A DNA stretch of 62,050 nt, filler included, from Globobulimina sp. (Eukaryota), in assembly GCA_003354225.1 (NCBI GenBank). It is 17 parts of 17 records of this genome, joined end to end, with 100 filler letters (N's around TTAATTAATTAA, not from the genome) between each part and the next. Parts side by side here need not be neighbours in the genome. Positions count along the whole stretch, not along the records: positions 10,981 to 14,538 come from PIVH01002512.1; 16 more parts are not named here. One strand, written 5' to 3'. The translations under genes and the position numbers were made by a program. Positions 10,881 to 21,953 of the stretch are shown here, one piece after another. Position 1 is the first letter of the stretch. Every line of letters begins with the position of its first letter. The notes beneath the pieces are model-generated. The model was not told the origin of the DNA, searched no databases, and was given only the letters and a program-made list of their open reading frames with translations.

Positions 10881-11117
10881 NNNNNNNNNNNNNNNNNNNN
10901 NNNNNNNNNNNNNNNNNNNNNNNNTTAATTAATTAANNNNNNNNNNNNNNNNNNNNNNNNNNNNNNNNNNNNNNNNNNNNTTTATTTTCTTGTTGTTTTT
11001 GGTTTCATAAAATCTCATTATTGCATTTGAACTGTTGCAATATCAATGAATATTAGTTGTGGGACAAACGTGTTTATAAAAAGCTATATAAGTCCGACTC
11101 TATAACAAATTCATAAT

Positions 11118-13835
11118 TTATTCAAAGACAATTTCAAATTCATAATTAACGGCAATATTAACCTCAAATACCAATAAATTTGGAGTTTTATAACAAAAAT
11201 TGTCTAATAATGTTTTCTTGTGTTTTGAATGTATAATGACAGACTTTGTTGGAATACTATTTGCGTTGGACATTAATATCCAGATTTGATAAATATTGCA
11301 TTTCTGTATTTTTTCATTTGAGTGAATTATTTTATTTGTAAATATATCTGAATCAAAAATAAATTGTGTAAACATATATTCATTGCAATCCAAATGATTT
11401 AAAGTTTCTCCATCATCCAAATAATATTTTCCAATGCAAAAATTATTCCTATCCAAGGCCATAATAATTGTAATTGGATCATATTTCATTAATGATGCAG
11501 ATCTCCGCATAAATTGATGTCTTTCTACAGTTAATTTCCCGCCTAACCTCAGAACAGGGATTGTATCCGAATATCCTTTCAAATTAACAATGCTTTGTTC
11601 CTCATCCATTCCATAAATATCAACCATACACTTTTCATCGTCATTTGTGAGTTGATAATAAATATGATTTTGCGGCAAGACAACAGTGCATTGACTCGTA
11701 TCTGGCGTAACAATCGGAACTATAAATAAAGCATCGCCAAACATGAACGCGTCCTCTCTGTCAAATGTGTTGATATCGCTTTCAAATTCATACCATAGTG
11801 GCCTCATAATTGGATGTCCCGCACAAAAAGACAAATAAAACAAGGTATAAATGTATGGCAATAATTTATATCTTTGAATAATTGAATTACGCATACTTTG
11901 CATATATTTGCTATCCATCTCAGTATCATACATCCAAAATTCTTGTCTTTTCGCATTGTGATGACAATGATTCCGAAAAAATGGATAAAATGCAGCCAAA
12001 TTATACCATCGTTGCATTAATTGAGCTGAGCAATGACCAAAAAAGCCGCCAACATCGGCGCCAACAAAGGGCATTCCAGCAACACTCAAAGATAATAACA
12101 TCGCAATTGATATTTGTAAATGTTTCCAATTTGATTTATTATCACCGGTCCAAATCGCACCAAACTTATGTGAGCCAATAAAAAAAGAACGCGATAATAT
12201 AAAAGGACGCAGTCGTTGATTAAATTCATTTTTCCGTTTTAATAATCCTTCAAAAGAGGCTTTATGGAAATAATAACCATATAAATTATGAACTTCTTCA
12301 TGTCTTAAATCAAAATGAATGGCATCACAATGTTTATTACAACAAGGCATTGTTCCTTCCATCCCGTCAAAAACCGATGGTTCATTCATGTCATTCCAGA
12401 CAAATATGTTATTATTTTGCATATATTTTGGAAATTGTTGACCCCATAACTCCCTCATTTGTGCATTTATGAAATCAGGGTATAAGGACTGGCCCGGCCA
12501 GCATTTCCCGGCAAAATTCTTATTCTCTCTCGTTTGAACCCAGTAATTATTTTTATTTATGATATTGTAAATGGAATAATTTTCATCTTTTTTTATATGG
12601 GGATCAACGATGCAAACTAACTTCCTTTTGGTGTCAGCATTTGATAAGTTCTTAATTAATCGTTTTGGATCTGGGAACTTATTAAAATCCCAAGTAAAAT
12701 ATTTCTTTTTCTCTGTGTGTCCAATATCAAGCCATATCACATCATTTGGACATTTATATTCGTTAAATTTGTCATTGATATCCATTACATCTTTCTCGTC
12801 CACATAATCCCATCGACATTGATGATGACCCACTGCAAACAATGGAGGTAACTGAGGAGGACCGGTCAGGCCATAATATTGCGATAAATAACTCCTTTTA
12901 CTCTTATTTTGATGTAACAATATAAATGTTTCTAAAGCACAAGTTTCGCTCATAAATCGAACATTTTTTGAGTTGATTTTATTTTCGTGAATTTCAACAA
13001 ATGTTTCTGACGAATTGCACCATAAAATAGAATGTGTTGTTAATGCATTATGGTTTATAATATATGGTATCGAACCATATAGCATTGCTGGCGAATTTAT
13101 TTTATATTTATAAACATCCAAATTATACATTCGATATGCTTCTGCATTGTCGAAACTATTTGTGGATGGCAGAGAGAATGGCGTGGAATGCGAGGGAATG
13201 CCATAAACATTCATCTCTTTCTCTTTTGCATCATCATTTGATTGTAATTCAACAAAATCAAAATCTAAACCAATGGCTGAAGCACCATAATCTCGATAAT
13301 ATGTATGATTTAATGCTGTCTCTGAATGTGCACAATTTGAATATGGTTCGAAGTAAAATTTGTTTCTATTATTCATTAAAATTTGCAATTCATTTGATTC
13401 ATAAATATGAATTAGAAATGGTTGATAAAATATTTTTATACAATAAGAATTCCATGCTAATATACAACCATTTTCTGTGTGTTTAATGGTTGAAAATGGC
13501 AATGCTTTTCTTGCATCATTCATTAATACGTCATTGTTATCATTTACTTGATATCTTTTTTTCTTATTTTTATCATCATTTAATTCTTTGATTGATACAC
13601 GAACAATATCATCAATTACGCGACTTACTATCAATTTTAATTGTTTTTCTTCATTTTCAGCATCATTTGAATCGCATAAAACCGCTTCAAACTCAAACTG
13701 TTTGTTAACAATATTCATAGTTTTTTCATCTATAAAATAGTTGCATTTGTCGACATTTTCATTTTGTCTCAGATAGAATGGTGTGTTTGATGATTTTCTG
13801 TATTTATCATCATGTGTGGCTTTGACCTGTTGCAT
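11118..13835 (-). CDS. GH31 neutral alpha-glucosidase (glucosidase II alpha / GANC-like), intronless
   Basis: HQCRW, WLDI, nucleophile WNDMNEPSVF, acid/base WTGDN, GADVGGFFG and YPFFRNH motifs. Confidence 0.92.
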   Translation of the reverse strand: MQQVKATHDDKYRKSSNTPFYLRQNENVDKCNYFIDEKTMNIVNKQFEFEAVLCDSNDAENEEKQLKLIVSRVIDDIVRVSIKELNDDKNKKKRYQVNDNNDVLMNDARKALPFSTIKHTENGCILAWNSYCIKIFYQPFLIHIYESNELQILMNNRNKFYFEPYSNCAHSETALNHTYYRDYGASAIGLDFDFVELQSNDDAKEKEMNVYGIPSHSTPFSLPSTNSFDNAEAYRMYNLDVYKYKINSPAMLYGSIPYIINHNALTTHSILWCNSSETFVEIHENKINSKNVRFMSETCALETFILLHQNKSKRSYLSQYYGLTGPPQLPPLFAVGHHQCRWDYVDEKDVMDINDKFNEYKCPNDVIWLDIGHTEKKKYFTWDFNKFPDPKRLIKNLSNADTKRKLVCIVDPHIKKDENYSIYNIINKNNYWVQTRENKNFAGKCWPGQSLYPDFINAQMRELWGQQFPKYMQNNNIFVWNDMNEPSVFDGMEGTMPCCNKHCDAIHFDLRHEEVHNLYGYYFHKASFEGLLKRKNEFNQRLRPFILSRSFFIGSHKFGAIWTGDNKSNWKHLQISIAMLLSLSVAGMPFVGADVGGFFGHCSAQLMQRWYNLAAFYPFFRNHCHHNAKRQEFWMYDTEMDSKYMQSMRNSIIQRYKLLPYIYTLFYLSFCAGHPIMRPLWYEFESDINTFDREDAFMFGDALFIVPIVTPDTSQCTVVLPQNHIYYQLTNDDEKCMVDIYGMDEEQSIVNLKGYSDTIPVLRLGGKLTVERHQFMRRSASLMKYDPITIIMALDRNNFCIGKYYLDDGETLNHLDCNEYMFTQFIFDSDIFTNKIIHSNEKIQKCNIYQIWILMSNANSIPTKSVIIHSKHKKTLLDNFCYKTPNLLVFEVNIAVNYEFEIVFE

Positions 13836-14215
13836 TGTGTTCAAATGTATGTAATCATAGATGTATATTTCGTTTTAATTTGTTTTAAACGTAACAATCT
13901 TGATTGCTTTCTTTTTTTTCTTTGGTTTCCAACCAAGACCACTGAACATTACTTACTTACAAAATGAATGATGTTTTTCGTTAAATTTAAATTTAATACA
14001 GTATCAAATATCAATGAACAAGAAGAATATTCTATCATTTTACGATATCATACAATGCAAAATAAGTGGATCACTGATATGAAAAGTAGCATTTTAAAAA
14101 CTTGACTTTATTTTTTTTCTTGAATTTTGTTCGTGACATATTTTACGATGCAATGCCAATCTATGACATGGATGTACAAAAAGCATATAGGTTTTATCAG
14201 CCAATATTTGTTGGA

Positions 14216-14426
14216 TGACTCAGGCAGGATTTAAACCTGCATCCATGTGCATTATAGCCACAACATTGAATTTATAATCAGCAATTGTGTATTGAATATT
14301 GCTAAACAGTGGATGCCTACATCCTAGGCATATTACTCTACGCTTACACGGGGTCTCTTCGCAAGGGAATTGTGGGTGGAACAGCCGAAGCTGCAGACAC
14401 ACGCTCTATTATTGAGCTACTGAGTC
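14216..14426 (-). ncRNA. tRNA-like gene A with a 146-nt insert in place of the anticodon loop
   Basis: Minus strand reads GACTCAG TA GCTC AATAATA GAGC G TGTGT [146 nt] GCACA TGGAT GCAGG TTTAAAT CCTGC CTGAGTC A. All four cloverleaf stems pair. A T5 run lies ~35 nt downstream. Confidence 0.75.
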
Positions 14427-14771
14427 TTAATAAATTATTATTTAATTTATTTTCTTGTTGTTTTTGGTTTCATAAAATCTCATTATTGCATTTGAACTGT
14501 TGCAATATCAATGAATATTAGTTGTGGGACAAACGTGTNNNNNNNNNNNNNNNNNNNNNNNNNNNNNNNNNNNNNNNNNNNNTTAATTAATTAANNNNNN
14601 NNNNNNNNNNNNNNNNNNNNNNNNNNNNNNNNNNNNNNAAACAGTTGTCATAATCAAATATTCATGCAACGAGTAATTGAGTATTTTTCTGACGTTCGCC
14701 CAAATCCTAAGATATTATGGTTGCTGATATGCGGAGCAAACTGCTATGATGAGAAAATCACTTCCAAGACC

Positions 14772-16532
14772 ATGTCGTTGTGGACTTTTCTATCACGTCA
14801 TATTTTGGCCAATCCTCTTAATTCATTTGATGCGATGTCTGGTATTTTATTGGGTATGACAGCCACTGGAATTGTATACAAGACAACAATAAGAACCAAG
14901 AATTGGAAAATTAACCGAAAAATCTTCATTATTTTAGGAATACTATACGTTGGTTATCGAATCGCAAAAATTCTAAGGAAACAATATAAAGCATTATTAA
15001 TTAAATCGTCACCATTTAAACATCGGATTGTTATCATTGGAGCTGGTTTAAGTGGACTTTGCATGGCAATTAAACTGAAACACGAATTGGGTTATGATAA
15101 TTTTATAATTTATGAAATGCTTTCTGATTTAGGCGGTACTTGGTTTGCAAATACATATCCTGGCTGTTGCTGTGATGTCGCAGGTGATCTATATTCATAT
15201 TCGTTTGCACCAAACCCTATGGCACAAAGAGCGTATCCCACACAATCAGAAACATTGCAATATATCAAACAAGTTGCAAACAAATATGATCTTTATAAAT
15301 ATATTCAATTTAATACGCAAGTTATCGGTTGTAAGTACGATGAAAATACTGCACAATGGACGGTGCAACTAAAACATGTACAAAATGATACCGATACAAA
15401 TGATACAATACAATCAGTAAAAGCAAATTTTGTTGTTTCTGCTGTTGGCGCATTCGTGATTCCAAAATACCCAAACATTGCTAATTTAAAAGCATTTAAA
15501 GGTAAAATGATTCATTCTGCACAGTGGGAGCATGGATATGATTTTCAGAGTAAAAGAATTGCAGTAATTGGTACCGGATGTTCCGCCATACAGTTGGTAC
15601 CCACATTAATTCAAACCTATGGTAAGCACATAAAACGAATGGATGTTTACCAACGTACTCCGGGACATATATTCCCCAAAGAAGATTATAAACATTCTGC
15701 AATGCGACAATTTTTATATTATTACTTGCCATGGACTTTGAAATTAAAACGATATTTTTTATACTGGAGACATGATGCATTAATATTTCCTGCTTTGTAC
15801 AAAGACAGTAAACGAAATAAACAATTTGAAGAACTTTGTGGTGAATATAGGAATCAAATGGTTTGTGATACTGTGTTGAGAAAGCAGTTAAGGCCAAGTT
15901 TTCCGTTTGGCGCTAAGCGGATATTGGTTGAAGATGGATATTATTCTGCTTTGCAAGAAACAAATGTCGGATTACTAACAAGTATGGATGGCCATGGAAT
16001 AGATTGTATGATGGCGGATGGCATCAAATTAAAGAATGGCGTTTTGAAGGAATATGACTGTATAATACTTTGTACTGGCTATGAAACAGAAGAATTTCTA
16101 AAAAGTATTCCAAATGGAGTTGTAAATACAGCCAAAAACATGGAAATTAATGTAACAGATGCAAAAGCATATATAGGACGCACTGTTTCTAACTTTCCGA
16201 ATTGGTTTCAAATAATGGGACCAGGCTCCGGTTTGGTACATTCGTCCATGATATTAATAATTGAAAATGATGCGAATTATATTAAACAAATTATTGAGAA
16301 ATTTCTAGTGAGCCATGGTAAGTTTAAATCAATTGAGGTGAAAGAAAAGTGCATGGATGAATTTGTAGATCGAATGGACGCTCAAATGCAACAAATGGTT
16401 TGGAGTGATGAAAATACTACGTCTTGGTATAAACATAAACATCAACGCGTTGCTGCTTTGTTTGGATGGAGTGCTGTTTATCATTGGTGGATATCCAGAA
16501 AGGTTGAATGGAGTCATTACACATTAACTTAA
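14772..16532 (+). CDS. Baeyer-Villiger-type flavin monooxygenase with N-terminal TM segments
   Basis: Two Rossmann motifs (GAGLSG, GTGCSA), GGTWFANTYPG and BVMO fingerprint FKGKMIHSAQW. Probable start is MSLWTF at 14772. The 36 upstream codons of the listed ORF are mostly retroelement-derived. Confidence 0.88.
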   Translation: MSLWTFLSRHILANPLNSFDAMSGILLGMTATGIVYKTTIRTKNWKINRKIFIILGILYVGYRIAKILRKQYKALLIKSSPFKHRIVIIGAGLSGLCMAIKLKHELGYDNFIIYEMLSDLGGTWFANTYPGCCCDVAGDLYSYSFAPNPMAQRAYPTQSETLQYIKQVANKYDLYKYIQFNTQVIGCKYDENTAQWTVQLKHVQNDTDTNDTIQSVKANFVVSAVGAFVIPKYPNIANLKAFKGKMIHSAQWEHGYDFQSKRIAVIGTGCSAIQLVPTLIQTYGKHIKRMDVYQRTPGHIFPKEDYKHSAMRQFLYYYLPWTLKLKRYFLYWRHDALIFPALYKDSKRNKQFEELCGEYRNQMVCDTVLRKQLRPSFPFGAKRILVEDGYYSALQETNVGLLTSMDGHGIDCMMADGIKLKNGVLKEYDCIILCTGYETEEFLKSIPNGVVNTAKNMEINVTDAKAYIGRTVSNFPNWFQIMGPGSGLVHSSMILIIENDANYIKQIIEKFLVSHGKFKSIEVKEKCMDEFVDRMDAQMQQMVWSDENTTSWYKHKHQRVAALFGWSAVYHWWISRKVEWSHYTLT

Positions 16533-16579
16533 TAAATGATTGCTAGTAAACTAAGTTTTTTGTACATTTGAAAAATCCT

Positions 16580-18196
16580 CACCATTCTTTTTCAATCTCT
16601 GCAAAGTAATCAAAGCCATTTATAATAACTCTCATTCAGCCATCCGCGATATCCCTTTCATCACTCAGATCTTCAAACTCCAAGATTGATATCCTCCAAT
16701 CCTCCAAAAAATGTGCCCTTTCACCTGACCGTGATCGCTTAGTCCTCACAGCCAACACCATTGAGAATCTTGCATCTCTGTTGAAAATATGTGAAGAGCA
16801 CAGCCACCATTGGGCGTACACATTTAATTCGAAAAAATGCAAAGCCATAATACATAACGATCCATCCATTCTCACCAACAACACCCACCACCATAACACT
16901 GCGCAGAAAACTAAAATGACCCAAGAATACCATGACAAAATCAACCAACCGACACAAAAACAAGCCCCAATGGTCCTAATCACTGCTGTAACCAACAACA
17001 AATTAATGGCCATAGACATTGATGGCATGGTCTGTTCGTACAGCACCGAAGAAGTCCCTCCTGAAATATTAAATCCATTTAAAACCCACTGCTGTTATTA
17101 TCAAAAGAAAATATCAAACACACCGTATCACATAATATGTGATAACATAATTCAGGATAATAGCTGGTCCATATCCAAAATGCACCATTTGTGTCCTACC
17201 TACGATACCTTGGCGCTCACCTTTGTTCGCATGACCCTGATAACATTGTCTCGACAGAACGCACAAATAAAGTGTTCCTCAATAAACTGGACCAAAAAGC
17301 CAAACTGTTGTAACGCTTAGACTTTAACCATGATTTTATCTCTCTCAGCGACAAAATACGAATCCAAAAACATTCTACTTAGTCTACACTGAGATATTCG
17401 CTCAAGTACTCGATAGCAAAATAATCAATTTAACAGCTGCTCTGAACAAACAAATCCGTACAATAACGACACAAACACAAACTAAAAATTTTGTCTTTGA
17501 ACAATTCTCAGTCTTTGCAGTAATCCCATCCCCCTACGAACGCTGGGTCGTTCTGAAACTGGCCTTCTATTGGAAGCTCTGTAAAGGTGAACCCATTTCG
17601 TATATGCACAAATGGAACCTCCTCCCAAATATATCCAATTTCACCTGAAACAAAAATGGTTACCAACCAAACCAGAATAATAAACGACATTTCAATCAGC
17701 ACCGACCCATTCAATGATATAACCCATTCATCCGAATTAGGACCATTGGTGGTGGTAAAACAACACCGTGAATTGGTTGCCACCTTCCATAACAAACATC
17801 CTTTCAATATCCTCCAACACCATCTTTCTGACTACAAAGCAATGAACACATTTGAAGTGCAAGACCTTGAAGATTACGTAAAACAGCATATGATTGTTCA
17901 ATACCGTGAACTGTTTTACGCTTTCAACCAAAAACCATCCCATTGTAACCTCTGCATGAAACACATTCCAAATCCGATTGAGTACCATCTCTGTGTTAAT
18001 TGCCCGCGACTAAGCATGATGAGATACTCCTACTGGAACCATTCAAGGCTGCCATTATCAAAAATAGGCTCCAAAATAAACAGTTGTCATAATCAAATAT
18101 TCATGCAACGAGTAATTGAGTATTTTTCTGACGTTCGCCCAAATCCTAAGATATTATGGTTGCTGATATGCGGAGCAAACTGCTATGATGAGAAAA
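16580..18196 (+). mobile_element. Degenerate LINE-like retroelement remnant with C-terminal CCHC zinc finger
   Basis: Broken ORFs 16781..17320 and 17587..18196. The motif CNLC-x9-H-x4-C resembles the non-LTR ORF2 C-terminus. C/A-rich coding strand. Homologous to 6775..7221. Confidence 0.55.
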
Positions 18197-18493
18197 NNNN
18201 NNNNNNNNNNNNNNNNNNNNNNNNNNNNNNNNNNNNNNNNTTAATTAATTAANNNNNNNNNNNNNNNNNNNNNNNNNNNNNNNNNNNNNNNNNNNNTTGA
18301 TTGTGTCCTTTTTTCTGTATTATATATCCAACTGCTTGGGTTATTGCGCCAAACGAAGCTAAGATCACAGCAATAAGAAGGTTCTTTGATGCTTCGTCCA
18401 TTGGGAAATTACAAAAACTACAGTTTCGACTCAAAGCGAAGTTATGGATCACATCTTCATATTTTATGTATCACAGAATAATCCTTATGGTAA

Positions 18494-19907
18494 ATGGGTC
18501 CCTCCCATATCAGTTATCTGACTCTGCTACGCAGAGGACGATGGCTCGCAACGCTCCGCGTTGCTCCCCGTTCCAAAAATATATTCAATCCAATTATAAA
18601 ATATTTAACTGACACCTTTCATCCATTGAGTTTAAAAATCGATTATGTGAAAAGTGAATCATTCACCGGTTATATTGTCGGATCAGAATTAAATAATATT
18701 ACTGTTGCTGATAAACGCTTGACAGACTATGACAAGAATGACATTGTCAAGCATGGAATCGATGCGGTTGTGGTCATACATCGTCAGCACACAATAAAGT
18801 CGCAGCCGATATCCTGCGTTCATATGAACGAAATAAAGAGTAACAATCCGATGGACTGTCCAATTTATTATACAATGAAAGAAAATTGCGATTTCAACGC
18901 AGAGCATTTAGCGCATTTGAACGAATTTAATCATTTTCTCGATGAATATAATGAAAAAACAATATGTCAATCTAAAGATAAATGTGCTGCATTTATTAGG
19001 CTAGAAAATGGAAGGAATGTGTTGAGCGACCAATGTCATATCAAATTATATCTGCATCCCGCAAGGAAAAGATATATGAAATTGTGGCAGAATGCCAATT
19101 CGCTGATGTTTGAAACAAAAGCAAGGCGAAATCATGTGTTATATATGCCAGTGGCAGGCAGCAACAGTGCTGATTATGATGAGTGGGACGGATATCTGCA
19201 TGTTTTGATCGAGGAAGTAATAGTAAATGGATATCAGTATGACCTATGTCTGCAATGTGCAGTGAATGAGCGCGAGGAATGCAAACATAATATATACGAT
19301 GATAAGTATTCTATATTGACAATGGTCACTGATAAAATGGAATGTCATCGGCATAAAAGCATTGGTAAACCCTTACGAAGGGACCACATGTTATCCTTGA
19401 TACTTTATACAAGTTATTTGACTTTATTTTATGTTATATTTGTAATAATATGCATGTACGTGAATAGATTGTGAGTGTAGTTATGATTTGTGTGGGTCGC
19501 AAAGAAAAGGAGATTATGGTAAATGGAAATGGTTTGATTACTGTTTATGGAATGCCATTGATGAACTATCGAGACGTGAATCTGGTTCGTTTACAGTGTA
19601 TTCAGCAATAAATCGAGTGAAACTCGATAAGAAAAGTGTAGAATGTGGCTATTTTGCGACGTATGTGTCGTCGTCGTGGAATAAAGCGGTTGCGGATAGG
19701 TTTCTGATTAATGGAATGGTCATAGAAATGGATAAAGAGTTTAAAAATAATGCGTTTGTGAGGTGTGCCGATGTATCATGGATTTCAAAATTTGCTGATG
19801 AATTTGAGGTATTATTTGCAAGATCATTGGATTGTAATTCTATGAAGTTTAAATGTGTTGTGTTGAATGAGTCGCACGGAGTACAAACAGTGTCGCTCAA
19901 AAGGTGA
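18494..19907 (+). CDS. Cys/His zinc-finger protein with C-terminal mono-ADP-ribosyltransferase-like domain (5' end uncertain)
   Basis: Intron 19413..19467 joins the two ORFs (ILYT-N-CECSYDLC). Contains ART-like YVSSSW and ISKFADEFEVLF (ExE), plus PBZ-like C..C..H..H clusters. Confidence 0.55.
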
Positions 19908-20172
19908 GAATATGTTCATTGTTTATATATATTTGTGTGGGAATATTGTCTTCTAATTTAATTAGTGAAATCATACCCTTGATGTTAAGAATTGTTATTT
20001 AAAAACTTTTTGTTCAATCCTCCTGATAAACTTTTGGTTGACCACTACTACTGACGCTAACAAAATGTGTAGTGCTAATCTCACGTAAAACAAATGCTTT
20101 TAAAAGACAATATAAGATTAAAAATAATATTGGATTTGGTCTGGTTAGGAATTAAAAATAAATGTATTGAAC

Positions 20173-20392
20173 CGGTTCAGGTGGGATTTTAACCCACATC
20201 CATGTGTGTTGCGTGACAGAATTAATTAAACTGTTTAATAACAGAATAAATTAAACAGAATAACACTGATAAACGCTGGATTTTTTTTGTTTTGTTTTTT
20301 TTTGTATATTTCAATTTTTTTTTTTAGTTGGTTGGTTGGGGGTGCAGCCAAAGCCGCAAGACACACGCTCTAACGAGTTGAGCTACTGAACC
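20173..20392 (-). ncRNA. tRNA-like gene B with a 153-nt insert in place of the anticodon loop
   Basis: Minus strand reads GGTTCAG TA GCTC AACTCGTTA GAGC G TGTGT [153 nt] ACACA TGGAT GTGGG TTAAAAT CCCAC CTGAACC G. All stems pair. A T5 run lies ~16 nt downstream. Homologous to gene A. Confidence 0.75.
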
Positions 20393-20636
20393 TCTATAAT
20401 TGTTGTCTGGGTATTACTTAATGTTCTGGAAGCAAACAATTGTATACATATAGAATGTTGAAAATACAATTAAAAGATCATGGGATCGAAAAACAAAAAT
20501 ACGGCTCAAATTGCGTAGTTACTTCAATATTAAATCAATGGAAAAATAAAAAAATGCAAAATAATCAATCTGTCCGGATTTAATTCTGTCTTTTGACAAA
20601 TGAAGAATATATAGATCGACAATGATATAAATTCGG

Positions 20637-21839
20637 TTATAATTGGAAATAAAACATGTTATCTTCCAAAGATTTATTAAAACAAAAGGGATTATTTCTG
20701 AGATAAAACCGTTGCATTTGTTGTGATAAAAGACCAGCCCAAACAGGGAATTGTGGAGCCTCCCTCTTTTTGAATAATTCAATTTCATCCAACCATGCTA
20801 CCTCTATATGCTTTGCAAATTGCTCCAATTGGCGGCCCACTGTAAATGCTAAGATTGCCACACCAATCAATGTCAAACATATAGCCACAGCAAATAGCGC
20901 CAATTCATAGACCTCCAATGACTGAAATTCATTAAAATATATGGCTCCCATCAAAGTTGCACCCAATATCAGCAAAACCTGATATATCGGCACCACAAAC
21001 AAAGCGCCTTACAAATCACAATTAATATATATAATATTATCCAATGTCATATTTAATTTATAATACATACCAAAATATGCCAATCCTCTCTGTCGGAAGA
21101 ATTCTAACGATACATTCACGACAATAATACAGACGATCACAACATAAAAATACAAATCTGCCAAGTAACCAACAACAAACGTTGCTATTATGATAACCAT
21201 AGATTTCATAAATAACACATTAATGGCACCAAAGTAGGCAGCCAATGAGACATAAGATATCATCAAATATCTTTTCCCATAAACAATTTCATTCTGTTGC
21301 TTGTCATTAAAGTTCAAGTGTTCATAATATTTAACTCCAATAAAATCAATGACAGCGATCACTGTCAAAATGCAAAAGAATATTATAAATTGAGGCTGTA
21401 GCCAATTATCTATCAATTCACTTATTGTTGGCTCTGTTCCTTGCGATTTGGGCCCAAATATTATAGCCATTATGCTGCCACAAATTACTAATATTATCCC
21501 AATAATATCCTCTTTTTCGAAGGGTTCTCCCAACAATTTTGTGGCTAACAGTGTATTTGCGACGAGCGTCAATGACCCCAATGGAGATACGACTGACTGT
21601 GCGCCCCATTTCAAGGCTGCTGCATTCATCAGGGATCCCGCAATATAAGTTATAAAACCCGATATCCACAAACAATTGCCTGTATATGACTTCTTGTCTT
21701 GTTCGTTTGCAATTGTTTTGTTATGTGCGTTGACTTGATTGTGTCCTTTTTTCTGTATTATATATCCAACTGCTTGGGTTATTGCGCCAAACGAAGCTAA
21801 GATCACAGCAATAAGAAGGTTCTTTGATGCTTCGTCCAT
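20637..21839 (-). CDS. NIPA-family magnesium transporter, 2 exons
   Basis: GYIIQKKG, LWISGF, AALKWGAQSVVSPLGSLTLVAN and VVPIYQV...GAIYFNEF. 63-nt intron 21070..21008. Confidence 0.88.
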
Positions 21840-21953
21840 TGGGAAATTACAAANNNNNNNNNNNNNNNNNNNNNNNNNNNNNNNNNNNNNNNNNNNNTTA
21901 ATTAATTAANNNNNNNNNNNNNNNNNNNNNNNNNNNNNNNNNNNNNNNNNNNN

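What the first reader, a model, noticed from the sequence alone, without database searches (positions are those of the whole stretch)
14216..14426. tRNA-like scaffold A: anticodon loop replaced by a structured 146-nt cargo
Seen: all four cloverleaf stems pair, but the D-loop GG is AA and the T-loop is TTTAAAT, so the G19-C56 elbow pair becomes A19-U56. The insert opens with a GCAGC-UUCG-GCTGT tetraloop hairpin and a C-rich tract, contains a perfect 7-bp hairpin (14313..14331), and can close with CCACAA/TTGTGG. Splicing at 37/38 would give anticodon GCA but with A73 rather than the Cys identity base U73, and the usual anticodon-intron pair is absent. Inference: not a decoding tRNA but a tRNA-shaped carrier or processing signal for a small RNA. 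It may derive from intron-containing tRNA-Ile(UAU), since the insert ends CTATAA.
Basis: partly seen in the sequence, partly recalled or inferred. Interest (0 to 1): 0.78.

Follow-up and report, generated by a model that had tools for sequence, protein, structure and literature searches.

The report
tRNA genes with giant structured inserts
This is a real, evolutionarily conserved and multi-copy kind of tRNA-shaped gene whose anticodon loop carries a folded 120-150 base insert, far longer than usual tRNA introns, and whether the insert is cut out or is itself the working part is still open.

Summary
The described sequence is there (14426->14216, minus strand). It is not chance. I found 11 full-length relatives: A and B in the window, and 9 in public contigs of 30-48% G+C. 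All keep a 7-bp acceptor stem, 4-bp D stem and 5-bp T stem. In the 7 copies counted, 12 of 21 pairs changed on both sides and stayed paired (0/500 shuffles). A hairpin starting at nucleotide 34 is present in 11/11. Six relatives pass Rfam's tRNA threshold with the insert placed in the anticodon loop; A itself does not (17.8 bits against 29). In the GC-richer relatives the gene lies in small-RNA gene clusters (7SL, tRNA-Arg, tRNA-Sec, U2). In the window's organism the 5' module is highly repeated, and 5'-only fragments exist. No target-site duplications were found. The marks of standard tRNA splicing are missing: the 32:intron pair in 0/11 copies, and no bulge-helix-bulge. Best reading (0.45): a Pol III tRNA(GCA)-type gene family with an unusually long, structured, non-canonical intron. 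Rivals: an unspliced tRNA-scaffolded RNA, or a decaying repeat copy. Descent from tRNA-Ile(UAU) is not supported. New variant of a known kind; interest moderate to high.

The parts
14216..14426 (-). Element A: whole tRNA-shaped gene with its insert (211 nt)
   Evidence: Read. Folded. Family membership.
14420..14426 (-). Acceptor stem, 5' strand (GACTCAG). It pairs with 14217-14223.
   Evidence: 7 of 7 pairs. Across 7 copies, 6 of the 7 acceptor pairs changed on both sides and stayed paired.
14403..14417 (-). D arm (GCTC / AATAATA / GAGC). It has an A-box-like sequence. G18 and G19 are replaced by A and A.
   Evidence: The D stem is invariant in 11 of 11 copies. D-loop length varies from 7 to 16 nt.
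14397..14401 (-). Anticodon stem, 5' strand (TGTGT), followed by C32 and U33 at 14396-14395
   Evidence: The first 4 pairs are kept in 11 of 11 copies. Pair 31:39 is formed in only 2 of 11.
14381..14394 (-). P1 hairpin GCAGC-UUCG-GCUGU. It starts at nucleotide 34, so it holds the would-be anticodon GCA.
   Evidence: A hairpin at this place in 11 of 11 copies, in 4 sequence versions. It is identical in 8 full-length and 3 partial copies from contigs of 30-48% G+C.
14365..14380 (-). C/A-rich tract (UCCACCCACAAUUCCC). Positions 14369-14375 form the 5' strand of the proposed closing helix P2.
   Evidence: For A the P2 helix is 7 bp, and 104 of 1000 shuffles do as well.
14313..14331 (-). Perfect 7-bp hairpin in the variable middle of the insert
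   Evidence: It is not conserved in the relatives.
14261..14301 (-). P3: counterpart of the hairpin conserved in the relatives. Lower stem is CAAUAUU (14301-14295) with AAUGUUG (14267-14261).
   Evidence: It aligns with CGACGTT/AACGTCG in L002 and CAACGTT/AACGTTG in L004, with compensatory changes. Its 3' strand overlaps the 3' strand of P2.
14258..14264 (-). G/U-rich 3' strand of the proposed closing helix P2 (GUUGUGG)
14251..14257 (-). 3' junction CUAUAAU. The last three bases follow A-R-Y, as in all copies.
   Evidence: A-R-Y in 11 of 11 copies, while the two bases before them vary.
14246..14250 (-). Anticodon stem, 3' strand (GCACA), followed by the 5-nt variable loop UGGAU at 14245-14241
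14224..14240 (-). T arm GCAGG / UUUAAAU / CCUGC. It is B-box-like, with U in place of C56.
   Evidence: 5 of 5 pairs in 11 of 11 copies, in 7 stem versions. Across 7 copies, 4 of the 5 pairs show changes on both sides.
14216..14223 (-). Acceptor stem, 3' strand (CUGAGUC), plus the discriminator A at 14216
   Evidence: The discriminator is A in 8 of 11 copies, G in 2 and U in 1.
14178..14182 (-). T5 run 34 nt downstream, a likely RNA polymerase III terminator
20173..20392 (-). Element B: the paralogue in another contig of the window (220 nt). It has one extra U before P1, no P2, and discriminator G.

Best explanation
Element A belongs to a conserved, lineage-specific, multi-copy family of tRNA(GCA)-type genes, probably transcribed by RNA polymerase III. 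Their anticodon loop is interrupted by a structured insert of 117-148 nt.

Proposed working:
1. The tRNA body supplies the internal A-box and B-box-like promoter, and a T5 run downstream ends transcription.
2. The cloverleaf and the 19:56 elbow pair give an L-shaped fold, so the ends can be trimmed as for any tRNA.
3. The insert leaves the anticodon stem as a three-way junction. It has hairpin P1, which locks up nucleotides 34-38; a C/A-rich strand that can pair with a G/U-rich strand near the 3' end (P2); and a distal hairpin (P3).
4. I think the insert is most likely an unusually long intron that is removed in a non-canonical way. That would leave a tRNA with loop CUGCA(A/G)U and release a stable folded intron RNA.

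What is shown: the fold, its conservation, the gene's company of other small-RNA genes, and the high copy number. What is inferred: transcription, end processing, excision, and any use of the released RNA.
For: (1) Family.
- A pattern spanning the anticodon-stem strand and P1 found 6 metagenome contigs and 4 contigs filed under a bacterial MAG.
- With A and B this gives 11 full-length copies, plus 2 copies that have only the 5' module, 1 copy with only its 5' part on the contig (L006, cut by the contig end) and 1 with only its 3' part (L003c, cut by the contig end).

(2) Structure under selection.
- On 7 copies, 96.6% of 147 cells are paired and 12 of 21 pairs changed on both sides.
- 0 of 500 shuffles reach this. 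Sliding the partners drops pairing to 20-52%.
- All 11 copies keep 7/7 acceptor pairs and 5/5 T-stem pairs, with 7 T-stem versions.
- The tertiary pair 19:56 is Watson-Crick in 8 of 11 copies, in 3 versions.

(3) tRNA membership of the relatives.
- Rfam RF00005 scores 45.8, 44.9, 40.9, 41.6, 41.5 and 35.6 bits against a gathering score of 29.
- These matches run end to end, with a 137-152 nt insertion placed in the anticodon loop in the two alignments printed.
Three are called Cys(gca).

(4) Genomic company.
- In L002 to L004 the gene lies 12-17 nt upstream of tRNA-Arg(CCG), which is followed by tRNA-Sec.
- 7SL and U2 genes are nearby.
- A T5 run follows 4 of 7 copies within 7-34 nt. The other 3 run straight into the next tRNA gene.

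(5) The insert is functional rather than filler.
- P1 is present in 11 of 11 copies, in 4 covarying versions.
- P1 and the start of the C-rich tract are identical between contigs of 31% and 47% G+C.
- P3 keeps its pairing through compensatory changes between A and L002-L004.

(6) The anticodon lies on the 5' side.
- GCA after C32-U33 is invariant in all 8 full-length copies of the main type.
- On the 3' side only the last three bases (A-R-Y) are conserved, in 11 of 11 copies.

(7) Precedent. In Drosophila, the tRNA-Tyr gene CR31905 has a 113-nt conserved, covarying intron that yields a stable circular RNA (PMC4536317, passages read).
Against: - The marks of the standard eukaryotic splicing substrate are missing. 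Nucleotide 32 cannot pair with intron position -3 in any of 11 copies. The four positions of a bulge-helix-bulge central helix pair in only 1-3 of 4.
- Every candidate 5' cut between nucleotides 34 and 38 lies inside the P1 helix.
- With anticodon GCA the discriminator should be U73 for cysteine (recalled rule). It is A in 8 copies, G in 2 and U in 1 of 11.
- Cutting at 37/38 gives odd results in the paralogues: GUG with U37 in L003b, GCG in L004a and UGC in B (read).
- A itself fails both tRNA detectors. It lacks G18, G19 and C56.
- D-loops of 7-16 nt and a variable discriminator in the AT-rich copies suggest relaxed constraint on decoding.
- P1 and the C-rich tract are conserved more tightly than the T arm. 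That is unusual for a sequence that is only thrown away.
- No spliced form and no RNA evidence were obtained.
Confidence: 0.45

Rival explanations
1. A tRNA-scaffolded non-coding RNA that is not spliced. On this view the insert (P1, the C/A-rich strand, a variable middle and P3) is the working part. The tRNA body only supplies the Pol III promoter, end processing, stability and perhaps export.
For: - No canonical splice signals: 0 of 11 A-I pairs and no bulge-helix-bulge. The 5' cut sites are buried in P1.
- P1 and the start of the C-rich tract are invariant between organisms of 31% and 47% G+C, while the T stem changes.
- The identity mismatch of GCA with A73.
- Copies in the AT-rich organisms share an identical 5' module and then differ. 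A and L006 are 93.5% identical over 77 nt and unalignable after that. The loose ends at 14361-14380 show the same break.
Against: - Six relatives are good tRNA matches sitting inside tRNA gene clusters.
- The three bases before the 3' stem strand follow the anticodon-loop rule A36-R37-Y38 in 11 of 11 copies. That is expected if a normal loop is re-formed.
- Long conserved tRNA introns have precedent.
- No target or partner for the C/A-rich strand was found.
Confidence: 0.25
2. In the window's organism, A is one copy of a dispersed repeat (SINE-like or spread by segmental duplication) derived from such a gene. On this view A has no function of its own.
For: - Summed contig depth over 14322-14437 is 1117.9 in run X1, against 10.9 over the neighbouring gene. 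In X6 it is 491.5 against 11.4.
- 67 contigs of X1 lie on the 3.5-kb stretch.
- Two 5'-only copies (L005, L007) have no 3' half within more than 800 nt.
- D-loop length and the discriminator vary.
- L008 to L011 are copies of a longer repeat unit, 70-91% identical over 0.4-1.5 kb.
Against: - A keeps every stem, plus P1, P2 and P3, a compensated 19:56 pair and a terminator.
- Differences between copies are compensatory, not random.
- No direct repeats flank the copies beyond chance, 0 of 7.
- The unit ends at the discriminator with no A-rich or LINE-like tail.
- Outside the modules, the flanks of A and B match nothing in the other loci.
- In run X3 the same bin is not raised: 55.7 against 42.6.
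Confidence: 0.2
3. A small mobile element that targets the anticodon loop of a tRNA gene. Dada-type DNA transposons that insert into multicopy RNA genes would be the model.
For: The insert sits at one fixed place. Its ends are conserved and its middle is variable. The C/A-rich and G/U-rich strands are inverted repeats near its ends. For Dada elements I saw only the search listing and the start of the abstract of PMC8869645.
Against: - P1 covaries with the paralogue type and starts exactly at nucleotide 34 in all 11 copies.
- The insert is present in all copies found, in organisms of very different G+C content. No empty site was seen.
- No terminal inverted repeats at the very ends and no duplicated target were seen on reading.
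Confidence: 0.05

Closest known systems
Drosophila tRNA:Tyr-GUA gene CR31905 and its intron RNA tric31905
   Same: A nuclear tRNA gene split by an exceptionally long intron (113 nt). The intron's predicted structure is conserved with covarying pairs, and it accumulates as a stable RNA (PMC4536317, passages read).
   Different: - Here the insert is 117-148 nt.
- The family has many copies and at least 3 subtypes.
- The anticodon is locked in a local hairpin (P1) rather than paired to the 3' end of the intron.
- No bulge-helix-bulge-like motif or A-I pair can be drawn.
- Circularity and splicing are untested.
Archaeal pre-tRNA-Trp intron that carries a box C/D guide RNA
   Same: A long tRNA intron that is itself a functional small RNA. 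I saw only the title in the reference list of PMC4090602; the rest is recalled.
   Different: No C box (RUGAUGA, one mismatch allowed) occurs in any of the 11 inserts, and CUGA occurs in only 4 of 11. These are eukaryotic contigs. There is no bulge-helix-bulge.
tRNA-derived SINEs
   Same: A tRNA-like Pol III promoter region, high copy number, and truncated copies.
   Different: - The tRNA 3' half closes the cloverleaf after the insert.
- There is no tail and there are no target-site duplications.
- Changes are compensatory.
- Orthologous copies lie in conserved small-RNA gene clusters.
Unusual nuclear tRNA introns of algae (Ostreococcus tauri, Cyanidioschyzon merolae, Chondrus crispus)
   Same: Eukaryotic tRNA genes whose introns depart from the short canonical 37/38 type (PMC13578239, one passage read).
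   Different: That review calls about 64 nt 'unusually long', and the atypical introns it describes have bulge-helix-bulge-like structures. Here the inserts are about twice that length and have no such motif.
Engineered 'tRNA scaffold' for expressing structured RNAs in the anticodon arm (recalled, not checked in any call)
   Same: A cargo RNA replaces the anticodon loop, and the tRNA body gives processing and stability.
   Different: That is a laboratory design. This would be a natural family, and it is not known that the cargo stays attached.

Membership tests
tRNA (Rfam RF00005, cloverleaf RNA) | Four stems of the cloverleaf with correct spacing (2 nt, 1 nt, and a 5-nt variable loop) | tested here: met
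   A has 7/7 acceptor, 4/4 D, 4 Watson-Crick + 1 U.G anticodon-stem and 5/5 T-stem pairs. The family shows 12 of 21 pairs changed on both sides.
tRNA (Rfam RF00005, cloverleaf RNA) | Score at or above the curated gathering score (29 bits) | tested here: not met
   A scores 17.8 bits, on the 3' part only, and gives no match at gathering. Six relatives do pass, at 35.6-45.8 bits.
tRNA (Rfam RF00005, cloverleaf RNA) | Conserved elbow nucleotides G18, G19, T54, Psi55 and C56 | tested here: not met
   A has A18, A19 and U56. However, 19:56 is a Watson-Crick pair in 8 of 11 copies (A-U, U-A or G-C).
Decoding tRNA-Cys(GCA) | Anticodon GCA in a 7-nt loop together with discriminator U73 (identity rule recalled) | tested here: not met
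   GCA is present after C32-U33 but lies inside P1. The loop exists only if the insert is removed. The discriminator is A in A and in 8 of 11 copies.
Canonical eukaryotic intron-containing pre-tRNA (splicing-endonuclease substrate) | Base pair between nucleotide 32 and intron position -3 (the A-I pair) | tested here: not met
   C32 faces C or U in 11 of 11 copies.
Canonical eukaryotic intron-containing pre-tRNA (splicing-endonuclease substrate) | Splice sites lie in single-stranded bulges, or a bulge-helix-bulge is present | tested here: not met
   Only 1-3 of 4 central-helix positions can pair. Nucleotides 34-38 are in the P1 helix in 11 of 11 copies.
Canonical eukaryotic intron-containing pre-tRNA (splicing-endonuclease substrate) | A spliced mature tRNA exists | not testable with these tools
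   No usable RNA data. No contig joint across the insert in the 4 runs laid, which says nothing either way.
tRNA-derived SINE | Target-site duplications and a 3' tail | tested here: not met
   The longest repeat shared by the two flanks is no better than in shuffles for 7 of 7 copies. The unit ends at the discriminator.
tRNA-derived SINE | High copy number with random decay | tested here: inconclusive
   Depth for the 5' module is high in X1 and X6 but not in X3. 5'-only fragments exist. The full copies, however, differ by compensatory changes.
Box C/D RNA carried in a tRNA intron | C box RUGAUGA and D box CUGA near the ends of the insert | tested here: not met
   0 of 11 inserts have a C box, even with one mismatch allowed.
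tricRNA-producing tRNA gene | [quoted passage not shown] | not testable with these tools
   No raw RNA reads of the organism were available.

The most novel reading that the evidence does not exclude
The insert is not an intron but the payload. On this reading the elements form a natural family of tRNA-scaffolded RNAs, in which:
- an invariant P1 hairpin and a C/A-rich single strand form a common handle;
- the middle of the insert differs from copy to copy and acts as a variable cargo or guide;
- the tRNA body supplies the Pol III promoter, end processing and an L-shaped fold kept up by a covarying 19:56 pair.

The expansion to many copies in the window's organism would then mean diversification of cargo rather than decay.
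Probability: 0.2. Interest if true: 0.85.

Novelty: new variant of a known kind. Interest (0 to 1): 0.62.

Why it matters
If these are spliced tRNAs, their introns are longer than any I found described in a eukaryote. The comparisons I read were 113 nt in a fly gene regarded as exceptional, and about 64 nt called "unusually long" in an alga. They would also be removed without the recognised splice-site signals, which would point to a different way of choosing tRNA splice sites.

If they are not spliced, nature has its own version of the tRNA scaffold used in the laboratory to express structured RNAs.

Either way, standard tRNA finders miss or mislabel these genes. ARAGORN labelled them Thr, SeC, Tyr or Cys. 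tRNA sets for this poorly sampled eukaryotic lineage will therefore be wrong unless long inserts are allowed.

Tried and rejected
**Searches that gave nothing**
- No whole genome is held for the window.
- Earlier findings of the scan: nothing by place, by sequence or for relatives.
- First metagenome scan, with the 3'-half pattern: 0 hits.
- Viral contigs: the 5' pattern hit only a phage tRNA-Arg in a 25-tRNA array, which is a chance match. Two further viral scans gave 0.

**Sequencing runs**
- No RNA holder is listed.
- Two runs guessed to be RNA were laid. X8 has no cover on the element. X6 has only 35-41-nt contigs on the 5' module. No contig joins across the insert in any of the 4 runs. 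None of this bears on expression or splicing.

**Ideas checked and dropped**
- Box C/D guide: no C box in 0 of 11 inserts.
- H/ACA-like hairpin with an ANA box before the 3' stem: an ANA triplet is there in 8 of 11 full-length copies on reading, but the internal loop is too small. Dropped as unsupported.
- Telomerase-RNA template in the C-rich tract: the tract differs between copies and the gene is multi-copy.
- tmRNA-like or alanine identity: there is no G3:U70.
- Vault, Y and other Rfam families: nothing at E <= 10 around A or at E <= 1 in the loci.
- Avoidance of T runs inside the insert: no T4 run in 5 of 7 copies, but shuffles give this 46-72% of the time. Not evidence.
- Helix P2: it sits at a consistent place, but exceeds shuffles clearly only in L008 (0/1000) and L011 (8/1000). 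It is weaker in L003b (58/1000) and A (104/1000), and is at chance level in the other 7.
- An alternative pairing of GUG with CAC proposed by RNAalifold is not kept in the paralogues.
- The equal 146-nt length of A and B comes from two different ways of counting.

**Organism**
Not resolved. The best protein relatives are unnamed EukProt entries at 64-67% identity, and the protein atlas gave only broad eukaryotic clusters. A foraminiferal origin was only a guess of mine. The one paper I read on a foraminiferal genome says nothing on such genes (PMC3079666, passages).

**Literature**
Full report
**What the window is**

The 62,050-base window is not one molecule. It is 17 contigs of 3,552-3,561 bases, sorted by length. 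They are joined by spacers of 44 N, TTAATTAATTAA and 44 N.

The finding lies in contig 4 (10981-14538). G+C is about 31%. The contig's only long gene is an intron-less glycoside hydrolase family 31 protein of 908 aa (11118-13844, minus strand). Its best named relatives are glucosidase II alpha subunits. Contig 6 carries a NIPA-type magnesium transporter that is interrupted by what looks like a GT..AG intron of about 63 nt. So this is nuclear DNA of an AT-rich microbial eukaryote.

I could not name the organism. The nearest proteins are unnamed EukProt entries at 64-67% identity. No whole genome is held for the window.

**The observation**

On the minus strand, 14426->14216 reads as a complete cloverleaf frame. 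The stretch between the two anticodon-stem strands is 146 nt.
- the GCAGC-UUCG-GCUGU hairpin, which I call P1, and the C-rich tract after it;
- the perfect 7-bp hairpin at 14331-14313;
- the possible closing helix CCACAA / UUGUGG;
- AA in place of G18-G19, and a UUUAAAU T-loop;
- discriminator A73.

Free folding recovers the acceptor, D and T arms and P1 (z = -2.78).

On its own the element fails the standard detectors:
- ARAGORN by default finds nothing in the window.
- With introns of up to 400 nt allowed, it calls the second copy, B (20392->20173), as "SeC(tca)" with a 146-nt intron. It does not call A.
- Rfam finds nothing at gathering scores. In E-value mode the tRNA model scores 17.8 bits, on the 3' part only.

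A profile search finds only A and B in the window.

**Relatives**

A first metagenome scan, using a pattern from the 3' half, found nothing. A second scan used a pattern spanning the anticodon-stem strand and P1. It found six contigs, L002 to L007. The same pattern found four short contigs filed under a bacterial MAG, L008 to L011.

With A and B this makes:
- 11 full-length copies;
- two copies with only the 5' module (L005, L007), which have no 3' half within more than 800 nt;
- one copy with only its 5' part on the contig, because the contig ends there (L006);
- one copy with only its 3' part on the contig, because the contig ends there (L003c).

L002, L003 and L004 have 41-48% G+C. The others have 30-33%, like the window.

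**The cloverleaf is under selection**

All 11 full-length copies keep:
- 7 of 7 acceptor pairs (one copy has a G.U);
- the same 4-bp D stem;
- the first 4 anticodon-stem pairs;
- 5 of 5 T-stem pairs, in seven different stem sequences.

On the seven copies known at that point I counted pairs formally:
- 96.6% of 147 cells are paired.
- 12 of 21 pairs changed on both sides and stayed paired.
- No shuffle out of 500 reaches this.
- Sliding the partners by 1-3 columns drops pairing to 20-52%.

Those seven copies are related to one another, so the shuffle count is not a probability. The slid controls and the number of distinct pair types are what I rely on.

The tertiary pair 19:56 also covaries:
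- G-C in L003b and L004a;
- A-U in A and in L008 to L011;
- U-A in B;
- A.C in the other three.

It suggests that the L-shape is kept.

Pair 31:39 is formed in only 2 of 11 copies.

**They are tRNA genes by the usual yardstick**

Six relatives pass Rfam's tRNA gathering score of 29 bits from end to end:
- L003a, 45.8 bits
- L002, 44.9
- L004a, 40.9
- L010, 41.6
- L009, 41.5
- L011, 35.6

In the two alignments printed, a 137-nt and a 152-nt insertion is placed in the anticodon loop.

In L002, L003 and L004 the gene lies 12-17 nt upstream of a canonical tRNA-Arg(CCG). That is followed by tRNA-Sec, with 7SL and U2 genes nearby. L003 and L004 each hold further copies, and one in L003 lies next to tRNA-Gly(CCC). 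In L009 to L011 a sub-threshold U3-like match (27-30 bits) lies about 400 nt downstream.

A T5 run follows 4 of 7 copies within 7-34 nt. For A it is at 14182-14178. The other three copies run directly into the next tRNA gene. All this fits RNA polymerase III genes. Transcription itself is inferred.

**The insert**

Measured as a canonical intron, the insert is 117-148 nt long.

P1. It is present in 11 of 11 copies and always starts at nucleotide 34. It comes in four covarying versions:
- GCAGC / GCUGU
- GCGGC / GCUGC, with an extra U-A pair in B
- GUGUC / GACAU
- GCGGC / GCCGU

In the main type, P1 and the first bases of the C-rich tract are identical in copies from contigs of 31% and 47% G+C. 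The T stem changes between the same copies.

P3. A distal hairpin aligns between A and L002-L004 with compensatory changes: CAAUAUU/AAUGUUG, CGACGUU/AACGUCG and CAACGUU/AACGUUG.

P2. A helix between the C/A-rich strand and a G/U-rich strand near the 3' end lies at a consistent place. By shuffling it is clearly better than chance only in L008 (0/1000) and L011 (8/1000). It is weaker in L003b (58/1000) and A (104/1000), and is at chance level in the other seven. I therefore treat P2 as proposed. In A its 3' strand overlaps that of P3.

The middle of the insert is not alignable between most copies.

**Is it spliced?**

Against a standard intron:
- Nucleotide 32 (C) faces C or U at intron position -3 in 11 of 11 copies.
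- The four central-helix positions of a bulge-helix-bulge pair in only 1-3 of 4.
- Every possible 5' cut between nucleotides 34 and 38 lies inside P1.

For excision of some kind:
- The three bases before the 3' stem strand are A-R-Y in 11 of 11 copies: AAU eight times, AGU twice and AAC once. The two bases before them vary.
- This is what one expects if nucleotides 36-38, or 37-38, of a normal loop are re-formed there.
- GCA after C32-U33 is invariant in the eight full-length copies of the main type.

What different junctions would give, read:
- A cut at 37/38 gives GCA in those eight copies. It gives GUG with U37 in L003b, GCG in L004a and UGC in B.
- A junction after nucleotide 35 gives CUGCA(A/G)U in 9 of 11 copies, CUGUAGU (GUA, Tyr-like) in L003b and UGA in B.

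I cannot decide between these junctions from sequence. B has an extra U, no P2 and discriminator G, and may be a decaying copy.

The discriminator is A in 8 copies, G in 2 and U in 1 of 11. By the recalled rule, cysteine identity needs U73.

**Copy number**

I laid Logan contigs of four runs on contig 4.
- Run X1: 67 contigs lie on the stretch. Summed depth in the bin 14322-14437 is 1117.9, against 10.9 along the hydrolase gene.
- Run X6, another organism about 4% diverged in the coding sequence: 491.5 against 11.4. This is carried by 35-41-nt contigs over 14363-14407.
- Run X3: the bin is not raised, at 55.7 against 42.6.
- Run X8: no cover on the element.

Many contigs match up to 14361-14380 and then diverge. 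Others match only 14216-14249.

The 5' module (D arm to C-rich tract) is thus shared by many loci in at least two organisms. Summed contig depth is a rough measure and can include other organisms.

A and L006 are 93.5% identical over 77 nt and unrelated after that.

Flanks:
- No direct repeats beyond chance flank the copies, 0 of 7.
- Outside the modules, the flanks of A and B match nothing in the other loci.
- L008 to L011, by contrast, are copies of a longer repeat unit.

This is not the picture of a SINE. It does show that the family has multiplied and left fragments.

**Verdict**

The feature is real. It is a member of a conserved family of tRNA genes with a very long structured insert in the anticodon loop.

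- Most likely reading, at about 0.45: a tRNA(GCA)-type gene with a non-canonical intron that may give a stable intron RNA. The closest precedent is the 113-nt conserved intron of a Drosophila tRNA-Tyr gene, which yields a circular RNA (PMC4536317, passages).
- An unspliced scaffold RNA: 0.25.
- A functionless repeat copy: 0.2.
- A targeted mobile insert: 0.05.

A review calls about 64 nt "unusually long" for an algal tRNA intron (PMC13578239, one passage). [quoted passage not shown] Six literature searches found no description of this family.

The proposed descent from tRNA-Ile(UAU) is not supported.

Noticed in passing
window 1-62050: The window is a chain of 17 separate contigs of 3,552-3,561 nt in descending length. 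They are joined by spacers of N44, TTAATTAATTAA and N44. Neighbouring contigs are therefore not genomic neighbours.
   Followed up: yes
window 10981-14538, 14639-18196, 18297-21853: Contigs 4, 5 and 6 end in exact copies of their own first 93, 119 and 119 nt. Each is therefore a circle or a tandem unit, of 3,465, 3,439 and 3,438 nt. A contig of run X1 bridges the junction of contig 4. The tRNA-like elements lie in 2 of these 3 contigs and in 0 of the other 14 (Fisher one-sided p = 0.022; a single uncorrected look). Whether the elements have anything to do with amplification is unexplained.
   Followed up: partly
L002 1-989; L003 4-397; L004 686-1081: Tight small-RNA gene clusters in contigs of 41-48% G+C: the 3' part of 7SL, the long-insert tRNA, tRNA-Arg(CCG), tRNA-Sec and U2. 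The three tRNA genes are only 12-17 nt apart, and a T5 run comes only after tRNA-Sec. This suggests a shared transcript.
   Followed up: partly
L008-L011 (PIVX01000443.1, PIVX01000182.1, PIVX01000186.1, PIVX01000129.1): Four contigs of 0.8-2 kb and 30-32% G+C are filed under 'MAG: Gammaproteobacteria bacterium isolate Glo_16'. They carry the eukaryote-type long-insert tRNA gene and a U3-like match. They are copies of one repeat unit, 70-91% identical to each other. They are probably eukaryotic contigs mis-binned into a bacterial genome.
   Followed up: partly
window about 21008-21070 (-): The NIPA-type transporter gene (20637-21839, minus strand) is split by one in-frame stop. The stop lies in a stretch of about 63 nt that starts GTATGT and ends AG. 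This is most simply a short spliceosomal intron. The boundaries are inferred, not tested.
   Followed up: no
window 14200-14215 (-); L008-L011 just after the element: A short motif, CAACA(C)AA, recurs 2-20 nt after the discriminator in A and in L008-L011. B and L008-L010 share TTCAA.ACA ... TTTATTTTT up to the terminator. This may be a conserved 3' trailer. It was seen on reading only.
   Followed up: no
L005 673-745 (+); L007 5412-5473 (-): These are 5'-only copies: acceptor strand, D arm, anticodon-stem strand and P1, followed by unrelated sequence. In L005 the D-loop is 17 nt long and a T5 run follows 12 nt after P1. They have no B-box-like part, so they are fragments or a different short transcript.
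   Followed up: partly
L001 4336-4409 (-): A phage tRNA-Arg(ACG), in an array of 25 tRNA genes on a 217-kb viral contig, shares the 5' pattern with element A by chance.
   Followed up: yes
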